Assembly: GCA_009914755.4 (NCBI GenBank)
Contig: CP068257.2
Span: 30,400,001-30,464,000 of the forward strand
Length of the DNA stretch: 64,000 nt
DNA from: the human T2T-CHM13v2.0 reference genome, Homo sapiens
Direction: 5' to 3'
Below the pieces are notes generated by a model. The model searched no databases. It was not told where the DNA came from and worked only from the letters and a program-made list of their open reading frames with translations. Made by a program: the position numbers and the translations under genes. Positions 25,333 to 28,577 of this stretch are shown here, piece by piece (positions within the stretch are counted from its first letter, which is position 1; every line of letters begins with the position of its first letter).

Positions 25333-25600
25333 GATGCCTGATGTCTTAGGCCTATGAAAGCTTTCCTAAAACTCCTTCTGAGCTGCTAAAGTCTCAGGCT
25401 GCTAGTGACTCGGAGGTGCTCAAAAACTCTGCAGCAAAAAGCAAGTGTCATAATATTATTCTCTAGCCTGGGTTAATTATAGTGATTTTTCTCTATTCAA
25501 GGCAGCTAGAAAATCCTCTGTGGCATGCAAAGATCTAGGTTGCTGGGATCTGGGTGCATCTTGCATTTATTGTCTTCCCTCTAGCTTTGGTTTTCTCAGC
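25333..25600. repeat. Inverted-repeat arm 1, about 270 bp, partner at 28305-28577
   Basis: ttaggcctatgaaagctttcctaaaactccttctgagctgctaaagtctcaggctgctagtgactcggaggtgctcaaaaactctgcagcaaaaagcaagtgtcataatattattctctagcctgggttaattatagtgatttttctctattcaaggcagctagaaaatcctctgtggcatgcaaagatctaggttgctgggatctgggtgcatcttgcatttattgtcttccc is the reverse complement of 28305-28577. I count about 10 mismatches in the central 196 bp, about 95% identity. Confidence 0.85.
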
Positions 25601-26230
25601 CTCCAGGGAGAGGCCACTGTCTTTCTACCTTTAGGTTACCTCAGGCTAGGTTTGTACAGACACCTATCCATCTCACTGTAAGCCACTCTGACCTCATCCA
25701 CTGGCAGAGCTAGCAAATTCCAGAGCTTTAATAGGGGACTGATCAGCATAGGGTGCAGCAACGTATGTCCAAAGTGTCTTCCCCAACTTGTCCTTCTCAC
25801 CTGGAAATGGTTCCTTTTTATTTGTAAGAGCAAAGTTTTCAGACACCAAAACCATCAGCCAAGGCGTGGGGGGTACACATGGCAGAGAGTCTGGGGCCAG
25901 GAGACTTACTTACCTTCTGGCCTGGGCTCAGCATGAAAGTTCTCGATCTTAGCCTCCACCAATACAGACATTGACTTTCTGAGCCCCAGTTTACCCATAT
26001 AATTATTCAACCACAGGCTGAGGCTCCAGAGGGGAAGCAGGAACAGCCCAAACTCTAAAAAGGCTCGCCGTTTAGGACGGGAGGCAAACACTCACACAAG
26101 GGTTCGAAGGCATTTTAGGTGCTTCGACAGAAGTACATAGGGGTGACCATGAAAACGCAGTGGGGGAAAACTCAGTTCTCTCTGTCTGGGGAGACACACA
26201 AGACACAAGTGCAATTATGTTGAAAGGTGA

Positions 26231-26527
26231 GGCCAAGCGCAGTGGCTCACTCCTGTAATCCCAGCACTTTGGGAGGTTGAGGCAGGTGGATCATGAGGTC
26301 AGGAATTCGAGACCAGCCTGGCCAATATGGTGAAACCCTGTCTCTACTAGAAATACAAAAATTAGCCGGGCGTGGTGGCGCACCCCTGTAATCCCAGCTA
26401 CTTGGGAGTTTGAGGCAGAAGAATCGCTTGAACCCAGGAAGTGGAGGTTACAGTGAGCTGAGATCACTCCACTGCACTACAGCCTGGGCGACAAGAGCGA
26501 GACTCCACTCAAAAAAAAAAAAAAAAA
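26231..26527 (+). mobile_element. Alu SINE (AluS-like), full length
   Basis: ggccaagcgcagtggctcactcctgtaatcccagcactttgggaggttgaggcaggtggatcatgaggtcaggaattcgagaccagcctggccaatatggtgaaaccctgtctctac...gcctgggcgacaagagcgagactccactc + A17. The TSD is gaaaggtga at 26222-26230 and 26532-26540. Confidence 0.95.
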
Positions 26528-26921
26528 GAAAGAAAGGTGAGAGGGCATTTACCCAGTGACAGGAAGGGGAGGACATTCTTGGAAGGGACGGATGAGCAAA
26601 ACCCAGAACTGTGAAGAGCCTGGCAGGCCTGGGAAACTGCAGGAGGCTTAGCATGGCTGGAGCAAGGGGCACAATAGGCAATGTGGGGAGGGAGGCGGGG
26701 CCAGGGGAGGGGCTTCGACACCACTCTTAGGGCAGAGGCTGTCACCCAGGGACGATTTCGCCATGCCTGAAGACGTCTTTGACTATCACTTCCAGGGAGT
26801 TGGAATGCTACTGGCATCTAATAGGTGAAGGTCAGGGATTCTGTTAAACGCACAGAACAGCCCCTACAACAAAGAATTATTCAGCCCCATATATCAATAG
26901 CGCCGAGGTTGAGAACCTTAC

Positions 26922-27274
26922 TGTATTAGTCCGTTCTCACACTGCTACTAAAGACATACCCGAGACTGGGTAATTTATAAAGAAAAGAGATTTAATGGAC
27001 TCACAGTTCCACATGGCTGGGGAGGCCTCACAATCATGGCAGAAGATGAAGGAACAGCAAAGGGACTTCTTACATGGCAGTGGGCAGGAAAGCTTGTGCA
27101 GGGGAATTCTCATTTATAAAACCATCAGATCTTGTGAAACTTATTCACTTCTTCTATAACAGTAGGGGGGAACTGCCCCATCATTCAATTATCTTCACCT
27201 GGTCCCGCCCTTGACACACGAGGATTATTAAAATTTAAGGTGAGATTTGGGTGGGGACACAGCCAAACCATATC
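26922..27274 (-). mobile_element. ERVL-MaLR solo LTR (THE1-like)
   Basis: Reverse complement of the THE1-type LTR: tgtattagtccgttctcacactgctactaaagacatacccgagactgggtaatttataaagaaaagagatttaatggactcacagttccacatggctggggaggcctcacaatcatggcagaagatgaagg...ccatcattcaattatcttcacctggtcccgcc...gagatttgggtggggacacagccaaaccatatca. Flanking 5-mers are cttac / cttat. Confidence 0.9.
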
Positions 27275-27958
27275 ACTTATTCTCAGGGTAATGGGGACTG
27301 CTGGGGGGTTTTAAGCTGGGGATTGGCGCTCCCAGCTTTTTTCTTAGGAAGATGACTGTAGTAGCACCACAGCACATAATCAGAGGGGAAAACCCTGGCA
27401 GAAGGAAGATCATTTCAGGCAGGAGCTGTTATGCCTTCAGGTAGGAGTTGCCCAACTGCGACCCATGGTCCAAATCTGGCTTGTCATCTGTTTTTGCAGG
27501 TCTACAAGCTAAGAGTGCATTTTACATTTTTTAGTGGTTGAACAAAATCAAAAGAAGAATAATGTGTCACGTAAAAATTATATAAAATTCAACTTTCAAT
27601 GTTCATACATAGTTTTATTGGAACTCAGCCACTCTTATTTATTTACACATTATTTAGAGCTGTTTTTGCCCTACAGTGATAGAATTGAGTAGTTGCAACA
27701 GAGACTGTATGGCCTGTAAAGCCTAAAATATTTACTATTTGGCCCTTTATAGAGGAAGTTGGTCAGCCCCTGACTTAAACCAAGGCAACAGAGGTGAAGA
27801 TGACAGAAAGATATAGGCCCAGGAGTGATGTAAGAGGAGTACCATTAATGGACTTGGCCAGTGATTGATTATGGGGTGAGGAAAGGAGATCATTTTCTAG
27901 CTTGGGAGCTTTGGTAAGAGAGAAAAAAGAGCCAGGTTTTAGGATTTAAAGACAGGTT

Positions 27959-28247
27959 GGCTAGGTGAAGTGGCTCATGCCTGTAGTCCCAGTAATTTGG
28001 GAGGCAAAGGCAAATAGATTGCTTGAGCCCAGGAGTTCGTGATCTGCCTGGGCAACATGGAGAGACCTGGTCTTTACAAAAAATACAAAAATTATCTGGG
28101 TGTGGTGGCATGTGCTTGTAGTCCCAGCTACTCAGGAGGCTGAGACAGGAGGATCACTTGAGCCCAGGAGGTTGAGGCTGCAGTGAGTTGTGATCGTGCC
28201 ATTGCACTTCTGCCCAGATGGCAGAGCAAGACCCTGTCTCAAAAAAA
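27959..28247 (+). mobile_element. Alu SINE (older, AluJ-like)
   Basis: ggctaggtgaagtggctcatgcctgtagtcccagtaatttgggaggcaaaggcaaatagattgcttgagcccaggagttcgtgatctgcctgggcaacatggagagacctggtctttac...gcagtgagttgtgatcgtgccattgcacttctgcccagatggcagagcaagaccctgtctc + A7. Highly diverged from the consensus. Confidence 0.9.
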
Positions 28248-28304
28248 TACAATAAAGACTTAGGTTTTGGACATGTTGGGTTTGAAGTAACTGTGAGATG
28301 ACTA

Positions 28305-28577
28305 GGCCAACCTATAAAAGGAAAACCAAAGCTAGTGGGAAGACAATAAATGCAAGATGCTCCCAGATCCCAGCAACCTTAATCCTTGCATGCCATAGAG
28401 GATTTTCTAGCTGCCTTGAATAGAGAAAAATCACTATAATTAACCCAGGCTAGAGAATAATATTATGACACTTGCTTTTTGCAGCAGAGTTTTTGAGCAC
28501 CTCTGAGTCACCAGCAGCCTGGGACTTCAGTGGCTCAGAAGGAGTTTCAGAAAAGTATTCACAGGCCTAACCCATAC
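28305..28577. repeat. Inverted-repeat arm 2, about 270 bp, partner at 25333-25600
   Basis: gaagacaataaatgcaagatgctcccagatcccagcaaccttaatccttgcatgccatagaggattttctagctgccttgaatagagaaaaatcactataattaacccaggctagagaataatattatgacacttgctttttgcagcagagtttttgagcacctctgagtcaccagcagcctgggacttcagtggctcagaaggagtttcagaaaagtattcacaggcctaacc is the reverse complement of arm 1. Confidence 0.85.

What the first reader, a model, noticed from the sequence alone, without database searches (positions are those of the whole stretch)
25333..28577. 270-bp inverted duplication at about 95% identity bracketing a 2.7-kb repeat-rich segment
25333-25600 and 28305-28577 are reverse complements of each other, with about 10 mismatches over the central 196 bp. 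The homology ends sharply on both sides and the flanking DNA is unrelated. The enclosed 2.7 kb holds an AluS, a MaLR solo LTR, an AluJ and unique sequence. One arm abuts an Alu poly-A at 28248-28250. A roughly 55-bp piece of the adjacent sequence (28250-28310) recurs inverted at 32585-32650. The arms do not resemble any repeat consensus I recognise. They are too similar to be ancient copies of an old family, and their identity is near or above that of the surrounding AluS copies. Inverted low-copy repeats of this size and identity are substrates for recurrent inversion by non-allelic homologous recombination, for gene conversion, and for cruciform formation. The locus could be an inversion polymorphism or an evolutionary breakpoint remnant.
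Basis: seen in the sequence. Interest (0 to 1): 0.5.

Follow-up and report, generated by a model that had tools for sequence, protein, structure and literature searches.

The report
Small inverted repair-type duplication inside old L2
A 250-base stretch of ordinary human non-coding DNA was copied, flipped and pasted 2.7 kb away into an ancient L2 repeat, most likely as a by-product of DNA break repair some 17-38 million years ago; this kind of event is already catalogued in primate genomes, so the locus is real but ordinary.

Summary
25346-25595 (+) and 28570-28321 (-) align without gaps over 250 nt with 18 mismatches (92.8%, E 1e-104). They are the only two copies in the 64-kb window.

The arms have stops in all six frames, no Rfam match, no unusual RNA fold, no poly-A, and no LTR or TIR ends.

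The key new result is that arm B interrupts one old L2 element on the minus strand. The L2 runs from at least 28614, probably about 29088, to about 26190. The sequences on either side of arm B are adjacent in the L2 consensus (position about 70 on one side, about 75-78 on the other).

So arm B is the inserted copy and arm A, 2,725 bp away, is the likely donor. The enclosed segment is in its ancestral orientation in this haplotype, so the arms are not an inversion-breakpoint remnant.

The features fit the proximal "repair-mediated duplications" of Pace et al. 2009: non-TE inserts in TEs, donor under 5 kb away, up to 619 bp, no poly-A. The locus was not found in their table.

The 61-nt inverted copy at 32589-32649 looks like a second such event.

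The arms are 2.6-fold shorter than the shortest repeat in a validated set of NAHR inversions. Interest is low.

The parts
25346..25595 (+). Arm A, the inferred donor copy. A weak gapped resemblance extends it to 25333-25600.
   Evidence: 250-nt ungapped match to arm B at 92.8%, E 1e-104. It lies in sequence with no hit to the L2 or Alu consensus. All six frames have stops. RNA fold z-scores are 0.79 and 0.05. No Rfam hit.
28321..28570 (-). Arm B, the inferred acceptor: an inverted copy inserted into an L2 element.
   Evidence: Its two flanks are adjacent in the L2 consensus: L2 position about 67-70 at 28574-28571 and about 75-99 at 28320-28299. The arm-deleted joint alignment has z = 13 with 0 of 500 shuffles reaching it. 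Arm B itself against L2 gives z = 1.0. In the diagonal-restricted test 7 of 5000 shuffles reach the observed score.
28571..29088 (-). 5' part of the interrupted L2 (a decayed reverse-transcriptase coding region), lying outside the arms.
   Evidence: L2 consensus 23-67 matches 28614-28574 at 66% identity, the best of 1075 diagonals. Platypus L2 proteins P0002 and P0007 give tblastn hits to 29088-28924 and 29226-28924 (E 0.06 and 4e-4). This stretch is low-complexity and comp-based statistics were off, so the extent beyond 28614 is tentative. On the arm-deleted reconstruction, 5 of 6 L2 proteins give one-frame HSPs across the junction, each weak.
28252..28320 (-). L2 piece between arm B and the older Alu. 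It contains X (28246-28306), the donor of the second small inverted copy.
   Evidence: L2 consensus 100-146 matches 28298-28252, E 3e-5. It carries the 3' copy of the Alu target-site duplication.
28309..28320 (-). Inner junction of arm B: a possible 4-nt filler CTTT (28320-28317), then TATAGGTT (28316-28309). The latter resembles TATGGGTT at the outer junction (28576-28569), so it may be a short target-site duplication or microhomology.
   Evidence: Read directly from the sequence. Blurred by age and not statistically tested.
27959..28250 (+). Old Alu (AluJ-like, 79% to an AluS consensus) inserted in the same L2, flanked by AAAGAC(TT)AGGTT duplications.
26188..27958 (-). Continuation of the same L2 through the interior, interrupted by a MaLR-type LTR (about 26745-27113) and an AluS (26231-26520).
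   Evidence: Colinear hits to the L2 consensus: 218-230, 261-294, 400-553 (E 7e-9), 618-757 (E 2e-5) and 944-966 at 27906, 27881-27850, 27430-27277, 26698-26566 and 26210-26188. The MaLR is inferred from self-hits and the ORF signature.
32589..32649 (+). X', a 61-nt inverted copy of the L2 piece 28246-28306, 4,282 bp to the right. Probably a second small repair-type duplication.
   Evidence: 61 nt at 90%, 52 nt at 96%. It matches L2 consensus 90-149 only, and the homology stops at the Alu poly-A/TSD of the donor and does not resume beyond the Alu. X is colinear with the rest of the L2 and carries the Alu TSD, so X is the original.

Best explanation
A 250-bp piece of unique DNA (arm A, 25346-25595) was copied in reverse orientation into a break in an old L2 element 2.7 kb away, producing arm B (28321-28570).

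The most likely mechanism is error-prone double-strand-break repair. A 3' end at the break invaded nearby DNA at a few bases of similarity, copied about 250 nt, and rejoined, possibly with a few bases of filler. This is synthesis-dependent strand annealing; replicative template switching (MMBIR/FoSTeS) would leave the same footprint.

Divergence of 7.2% (JC 0.076) dates the event to roughly 17-38 Myr ago, depending on the rate used. The arms have no evident function, and the enclosed 2.7 kb kept its original orientation.

Shown: the duplication, its limits, that arm B interrupts a colinear L2, and the absence of retrotransposon or transposon hallmarks.

Inferred: the A-to-B direction, the repair mechanism and the date.
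For: - The pair is real and low-copy.
Its translation hits platypus L2 reverse transcriptases at 68-73% identity, E 1e-82. It also gives significant hits elsewhere in the window, for example E 2e-19 at 58831-58650.
- With that consensus, the interior and the outer flank of arm B form one colinear minus-strand L2.
- Deleting exactly arm B joins L2 position about 70 to about 75-78, z = 13.
- The outer flank alone aligns best on the predicted diagonal, out of 1075 diagonals. 7 of 5000 shuffles and 0.3% of real window 120-mers reach that score.
- Five of six real L2 proteins give single-frame HSPs across the arm-deleted junction.
- Arm B itself has no L2 similarity.
- There is no poly-A, LTR or TIR end, ORF, Rfam hit or RNA structure.
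- All measurable features fit the proximal repair-mediated duplications of Pace et al. 2009 (PMC2671141). In that study 824 inserts of at least 50 bp interrupt TEs with the donor under 5 kb away, 66% of all 1,136 duplicons lie under 3 kb from the donor, mean length is 162 bp and maximum 619 bp, none of the inspected proximal cases has poly-A, and opposite orientation was seen.
Against: - The L2 consensus came from memory and no Dfam or RepeatMasker run was possible.
- The outer-flank match is short (44 nt, 66%) and only modestly significant on its own (17 of 500 shuffles when unrestricted).
- An L2 protein profile found nothing in the translated relic, and Pfam found no RT domain.
- Genome-wide copy number of the arms could not be checked, so an unrecognised low-copy repeat family is not strictly excluded.
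- The junction signatures (filler, TSD-like TATRGGTT, homeology) are blurred and untested.
- No empty site from another primate was available.
- The locus was not found in Pace et al. Table S1, searching donor-acceptor distances 2709-2730 and a divergence of 7.2.
- The uneven mismatch pattern is not explained by a single neutral duplication.
Confidence: 0.7

Rival explanations
1. Two independent insertions of an unrecognised, fairly young interspersed repeat about 250 bp long.
For: Arm B is clearly an insertion into L2. Both copies have the same sharp ends. No repeat library could be consulted.
Against: The arms have no poly-A, no TG..CA ends, no terminal inverted repeats and no clear target-site duplications. 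There is no third copy, even a diverged one, in 64 kb. A family rare enough to be unknown would almost never place two copies 2.7 kb apart by chance (inference from copy density). A family young enough for 92.8% pairwise identity would have to be a SINE, LTR or L1 type, all of which leave hallmarks that are absent here. An exact 22-mer from the core is absent from the metagenome and prokaryote-genome collections, but this is uninformative because those collections do not appear to hold this human region.
Confidence: 0.08
2. Two steps in the opposite direction. Arm B was first inserted into the L2 from somewhere else, and arm A is a later inverted copy of arm B.
For: The first bases of the arm (TTAGGCCT...) resemble L2 sequence just beyond the inner junction (GGTTGGCCTAG). 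This could mean that part of arm B is target-derived and was then copied to A.
Against: It needs two events and an unseen third locus. Arm A shows no sign of interrupting anything. The resemblance is about 10 nt and fits equally well as the microhomology used for strand invasion.
Confidence: 0.1
3. An old, larger inverted duplication, or two old inverted L2 copies, in which a 250-bp tract was later homogenised by gene conversion.
For: Mismatches are unevenly spread, with an 86-nt perfect core (P = 0.007). There is a weak gapped resemblance for about 15 nt to the left. By eye there are L2-like motifs about 160 nt downstream of arm A.
Against: The flanks are not alignable (z = -0.6 and 1.4). The L2 consensus gives no hit near arm A at E up to 1. 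The arms themselves are not L2. Arm B interrupts an otherwise continuous L2, which a conversion tract would not do. Conversion between roughly 65%-identical sequences is not expected (established knowledge).
Confidence: 0.06
4. The footprint of an inversion of the 2.7-kb segment: either staggered breaks that duplicate the breakpoint sequence, or an NAHR flip between the arms.
For: Inverted duplications bracketing a segment are what staggered-break inversions leave (recalled model of Ranz et al. 2007, not re-read here). Inverted repeats can mediate inversions (PMC3961182, PMC6748972).
Against: The L2 is colinear and in one orientation from outside arm B (28574-28614, probably to about 29088) through the interior to about 26190. 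The interior is therefore not inverted relative to its flank in this haplotype. The arms are 2.6-fold shorter than the shortest NAHR-inversion repeat in the validated set.
Confidence: 0.03

Closest known systems
[quoted passage not shown]
   Same: A non-TE insert interrupts a TE whose two halves are adjacent in the consensus. There is a single nearby donor (2,725 bp away; in the paper 824 of 1,136 donors lie under 5 kb and 66% under 3 kb). Length is 250 bp (paper: mean 162, maximum 619). There is no poly-A. Filler, microhomology or a short TSD may be present. Divergence of 7.2% falls within the 3-16% range of the 'All primates' rows I read in part 1 of Table S1. Opposite orientation occurs in the paper (the ACSBG2 exon).
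   Different: No row in their Table S1 has the expected donor-acceptor distance. A possible reason is that the short L2 piece next to an Alu was not annotated in a way their pipeline accepts. No empty site or genome-wide uniqueness could be shown here. A second small copy (X') uses as donor the L2 piece right next to the arm B junction.
Inverted repeats that mediate recurrent human inversions by NAHR (Aguado et al. 2014, PMC3961182; Giner-Delgado et al. 2019, PMC6748972)
   Same: Two inverted, more than 90% identical copies bracket a few kb of DNA.
   Different: The validated cases use repeats of 654 bp to 24.2 kb. Here the arms are 250 bp with at most 86 identical bases in a row. The orientation in this window is ancestral. 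No polymorphism data are available.
Replicative template switching (MMBIR/FoSTeS; short-range template switches in great apes, PMC7954356; templated insertions, PMC8421209)
   Same: A reverse-complement copy of nearby sequence is inserted, with little or no homology at the junctions.
   Different: From the abstracts only, the short-range switches are studied below the kilobase scale. From my own knowledge, they usually copy tens of bases within a few hundred bp, and MMBIR rearrangements are usually larger or multi-junction. A 250-nt copy moved 2.7 kb sits between the two, and the mechanisms cannot be told apart from the sequence.
Interspersed repeats (SINE, LTR, DNA transposon)
   Same: A discrete unit with sharp ends is inserted into another repeat.
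   Different: It has no poly-A, LTR ends, TIRs, clear TSDs, pol III boxes or additional copies.

Membership tests
Proximal repair-mediated duplication (Pace et al. 2009) | The insert interrupts a TE, and the consensus positions of the two TE fragments are within +/-30 bp of each other. | tested here: met
   L2 position about 70 lies at 28571 and about 75-78 at 28320. The joint alignment has z = 13. On the predicted diagonals 7 of 5000 shuffles reach the score.
Proximal repair-mediated duplication (Pace et al. 2009) | The insert is at least 50 bp and is not a TE, a retrogene or an L1 transduction (no poly-A/T tract). | tested here: inconclusive
   The insert is 250 bp with no poly-A/T at either end and no Alu, L2 or Rfam match. 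No Dfam or RepeatMasker check was possible.
Proximal repair-mediated duplication (Pace et al. 2009) | The inserted sequence is found at exactly one other place in the genome. | not testable with these tools
   There is exactly one other copy in the 64-kb window. No human genome was available to search.
Proximal repair-mediated duplication (Pace et al. 2009) | The donor lies on the same chromosome within 5 kb (and more than 50 bp away). | tested here: met
   2,725 bp separate the copies.
Proximal repair-mediated duplication (Pace et al. 2009) | The breakpoints show microhomology (2-9 nt), filler (1-68 nt), a small deletion or a short TSD. | tested here: inconclusive
   Candidates are a CTTT filler, the TATGGGTT/TATAGGTT repeat, and an imperfect CCAG..CCTG resemblance of the donor and acceptor flanks. 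About 7% divergence blurs them and no statistics were done.
Proximal repair-mediated duplication (Pace et al. 2009) | An empty (pre-insertion) site exists in an outgroup species. | not testable with these tools
   No primate sequence could be reached. The ORF look-up, the protein search and the DNA scans all returned nothing.
NAHR-inversion inverted repeats | Repeat length and identity are sufficient for NAHR (validated human set: 654 bp to 24.2 kb, more than 90% identity). | tested here: not met
   The arms are 250 bp at 92.8%, with a longest perfect run of 86 nt, against the range quoted.
NAHR-inversion inverted repeats | Both orientations of the enclosed segment are seen in populations or species. 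| not testable with these tools
   Only this haplotype is available, and it has the ancestral orientation by L2 colinearity.
Staggered-break inversion with breakpoint duplication | The enclosed segment is inverted relative to the ancestral order, and one arm junction is novel. | tested here: not met
   One L2 runs colinearly across arm B from the outside to the inside.
Interspersed repeat family (SINE/LTR/DNA transposon) | Family hallmarks are present: poly-A tail or TG..CA ends or TIRs, target-site duplications, and many dispersed copies. | tested here: not met
   None of the terminal hallmarks is present. There are only two copies in the window, and they are adjacent. Genome-wide copy number is untested.

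The most novel reading that the evidence does not exclude
The pair may be more than a passive scar. Three readings remain open:
- The 86-107-nt near-identical core is kept alike by ongoing gene conversion or by selection on both copies, for example as a duplicated regulatory element.
- The arms flip the 2.7-kb segment in some people.
- Arm B and the 61-nt copy X' were made together in one multi-break repair event. The donor of X' ends 14 nt from the arm B junction, so this would be a fossil of a small complex rearrangement.
Probability: 0.08. Interest if true: 0.35.

Novelty: new member of a known kind. Interest (0 to 1): 0.12.

Why it matters
It matters little by itself. It is one more example of how break repair scatters short, often inverted copies of nearby DNA through primate genomes. 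It also shows that an old repeat can act as a built-in ruler, giving the direction of a duplication and ruling out an inversion without any outgroup sequence. If the arms turned out to flip the enclosed 2.7 kb in some people, they would be unusually short substrates for NAHR. Nothing here points that way.

Tried and rejected
- **Route to primate orthologues through spurious ORFs.** An exact look-up of the 118-aa ORF overlapping arm B was not on record. A homology search with six concatenated local ORFs gave no hit.
- **Exact 22-mer from the arm core.** It had 0 matches in metagenome contigs and 0 in genome contigs.
- **Arms as an RNA gene or hairpin.** Rfam at gathering and at E up to 1 found only Alu/SRP-type hits outside the arms. 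Fold z-scores were 0.79 and 0.05.
- **Arms as coding or RT-derived.** All frames have stops. Pfam on six frames of both regions gave nothing relevant.
- **Arms as part of L2.** There is no similarity, z = 1.0.
- **Protein-level proof of L2 continuity.** tblastn gave consistent but weak junction-spanning HSPs. An HMM built from 120 L2 proteins found nothing.
- **Longer palindrome or old duplication.** The flanks are not alignable, and the two inverted pairs have different centres.
- **Looking the locus up in Pace et al. Table S1.** Searches by divergence and by distance 2709-2730 found nothing, while the control number was found. The phrase search failed because of tabs.
- **Finding a gene in the window.** A PDB scan of ORFs of at least 60 aa for 1-21.5 kb and about 30-41 kb found only L1 ORF2.
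- **Other low-copy inverted pairs in the window.** They turned out to be L1 pieces.
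Full report
**Observation**

The inverted pair is real.
- The repeat finder reports arms 25341-25595 and 28321-28575: 255 nt, 92% complementary, 2,725 nt apart.
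- blastn gives 25346-25595 against 28570-28321: 250 nt, 92.8%, E 1e-104. No further copy appears in the 64-kb window at word size 7 and E<1e-3.
- The core aligns without gaps, with 18 mismatches: 13 transitions and 5 transversions.
- The flanks do not align. Local-alignment z is -0.6 on the left and 1.4 on the right against shuffles. Only a gapped 13-15 nt resemblance continues to the left.
- The small second inverted match is also real: 28246-28306 against 32589-32649, 61 nt at 90%, with 52 nt at 96%.
- Arm B does not touch the Alu tail. About 70 nt separate them.

**What the arms are not**
- All six frames carry stops.
- Rfam finds nothing at gathering thresholds in the whole window. At E up to 1 in 25000-29000 it finds only Alu-derived SRP and miRNA-like hits plus three weak matches, none of them in the arms.
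- Neither strand folds better than shuffles, with z = 0.79 and 0.05.
- There is no poly-A, no TG..CA, no terminal inverted repeat and no clear target-site duplication.
- Pfam on the six frames of both regions gives nothing relevant.

**The surroundings**

The window is human-type DNA. It holds about 20 Alus, roughly 8% of the sequence, an L1 at about 9-12 kb, and MaLR-type LTRs.

- Its translation hits real L2-clade reverse transcriptases, with platypus at 68-73% identity and E 1e-82.
- It gives significant matches at several places in the window, for example E 2e-19 at 58831-58650.
- It is therefore genuine L2.

With this consensus, the interior of the inverted pair turns out to be mostly one decayed L2 on the minus strand. 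The colinear matches are:

| L2 consensus | Window | Note |
|---|---|---|
| 100-146 | 28298-28252 | |
| 218-230 | 27906-27894 | short match, E 8; counted for colinearity only |
| 261-294 | 27881-27850 | |
| 400-553 | 27430-27277 | E 7e-9 |
| 618-757 | 26698-26566 | E 2e-5 |
| 944-966 | 26210-26188 | |

Three insertions interrupt this L2:
- an old Alu at 27959-28250, with the target-site duplication AAAGAC(TT)AGGTT;
- a MaLR LTR at about 26745-27113;
- an AluS at 26231-26520.

**The decisive point**

The L2 does not stop at arm B.
- The 44 nt immediately outside arm B (28614-28574) align to L2 positions 23-67.
- The sequence immediately inside arm B (28320-28252) aligns to about 75-146.
- With arm B deleted, a single alignment spans both parts, with z = 13 and 0 of 500 shuffles reaching it. 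Arm B itself shows no L2 similarity, z = 1.0.
- A stricter test allowed only the diagonals predicted by colinearity. The outer flank scores 12 on the diagonal that places L2 position 70 at 28571. That is the best of all 1,075 diagonals. It is reached by 7 of 5,000 shuffles and by 0.3% of real 120-mers from the window.
- Real L2 proteins add weak but consistent support. Five of six give single-frame HSPs across the arm-deleted junction. Upstream RT residues map to 29088-28924, although that stretch is low-complexity.
- A profile HMM of L2 proteins sees nothing in this relic, so the DNA-level result carries the argument.

**Consequences**
1. Arm B is an insertion into a pre-existing L2.
2. The simplest source is arm A, 2,725 bp away, copied in reverse orientation.
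3. The same L2 runs in one orientation from outside arm B into the interior. The enclosed 2.7 kb therefore has its ancestral orientation in this haplotype. The arms did not arise from an inversion.

**Mechanism**

A short non-TE insert interrupting a TE, with one donor a few kb away and no poly-A, is what Pace, Sen, Batzer and Feschotte (2009, PMC2671141) called repair-mediated duplication.
- They found 1,136 such inserts in the human genome. In 824 the donor lies within 5 kb, and in 66% of the 1,136 it lies within 3 kb.
- Proximal cases have mean length 162 bp and maximum 619 bp.
- None of the 39 proximal cases inspected had poly-A/T.
- Breakpoints showed microhomology of 2-9 nt, filler of 1-68 nt, small deletions or short duplications. 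The authors attribute them to synthesis-dependent strand annealing at double-strand breaks.
- An opposite-orientation example is described.

At arm B I see three candidate junction signatures. They are too eroded to be tested.
- a possible 4-nt filler (CTTT, 28320-28317);
- a TATGGGTT/TATAGGTT repeat at the two junctions;
- an imperfect CCAG..CCTG resemblance between the donor's and the acceptor's outer flanks.

Replicative template switching would leave the same product, and I cannot separate the two.

The locus does not appear in their Table S1 when searched by donor-acceptor distance 2709-2730 or by a divergence of 7.2. A control number was found.

**Age**

The p-distance is 0.072 (95% CI 0.043-0.111) and the JC distance is 0.076. 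That gives about 17 Myr at the 2.2e-9 rate used by Pace et al. and about 32-38 Myr at 1.0-1.2e-9. This is younger than the L2 (62-85% to consensus) and the AluJ-like element (79%), and similar to or younger than the AluS (89%).

**Second copy**

X' (32589-32649) matches L2 positions 90-149 only. Its homology to X stops at the Alu poly-A/TSD of the donor and does not resume on the far side of the Alu. X is colinear with the rest of the L2 and carries the Alu duplication, so X is the original. X' is a 61-nt inverted copy 4,282 bp away, again in the size and distance range of repair-mediated duplications. I could not show that X' interrupts a repeat.

**Unexplained**
- The mismatches between the arms are uneven. 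There are 11 in positions 1-67, one in 68-174 (which includes an 86-nt perfect run), and six in 175-250. The chance of so long a perfect run is 0.007. Later short-tract gene conversion, constraint, or luck could each account for it.
- The donor of X' is exactly the L2 piece between the Alu tail and the arm B junction, 14 nt from that junction. This may hint at a single multi-break event, or it may be coincidence.

The arms are 250 bp at 92.8%, with at most 86 identical bases in a row. Among 45 validated common human inversions, the 24 NAHR cases used repeats of 654 bp to 24.2 kb at more than 90% identity (PMC6748972). This makes recurrent NAHR here unlikely, though not impossible. Cruciform extrusion across a 2.7-kb spacer is not expected (established knowledge, not tested). 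Polymorphism cannot be assessed with these tools.

**Verdict**

This is a real, low-copy, inverted local duplication of the repair-mediated kind. It is an ordinary member of a described class, with no sign of function and no inversion history in this haplotype.

Noticed in passing
window 32589-32649 (donor 28246-28306): A second short inverted copy (61 nt at 90%, 52 nt at 96%) of the L2 piece that lies exactly between the AluJ tail and the arm B junction. It is probably another repair-type duplication and may come from the same event as arm B.
   Followed up: partly
window 25346-25595 vs 28321-28570: Mismatches between the arms cluster at the ends, leaving an 86-nt perfect core (arm positions 89-174). 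P = 0.007 under even spacing, which suggests later gene conversion or constraint.
   Followed up: partly
window 28915-29043: A 60-nt tandem duplication (28915-28983 vs 28975-29043, 95.7%) inside the decayed reverse-transcriptase part of the same L2. It gives a repeated 'SSSLSIQPLSVSY' pseudo-ORF.
   Followed up: partly
window 8372-8498 vs 17657-17783: An inverted 127-nt match at 91%. The sequence is the 3' end of primate L1 (TTTAAGTTCTGGGATACATGTGCAGAA...), so these are two ordinary L1 fragments rather than a local duplication.
   Followed up: yes
window 31564-31710 vs 34132-34276: An inverted 148-nt match at 81% that includes an L1 ORF2-type stretch (…AAAATTAATTCCAAAT…). Most likely two old L1 fragments.
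   Followed up: partly
window 1-600 and 12600-14200: Two minisatellite-like tracts: a roughly 15-nt unit giving a 'PGPLH' pseudo-ORF at the window start, and a CA/TG-rich degenerate repeat of about 1.5 kb giving long 'HTHT/CVCV' pseudo-ORFs.
   Followed up: no
window ~27440-27760 (minus strand): About 270 extra bases lie inside the L2 between consensus positions about 294 and 400. They include GGGCCAAATAGTAAATATTTTAGGCTTTACAGGCCATACAGTCTCT, which looks like another nested old repeat that I could not name with confidence.
   Followed up: no
window 9300-12000: An L1 element with long ORF2-derived open frames. PDB L1 ORF2p matches reach E 1e-127.
   Followed up: yes
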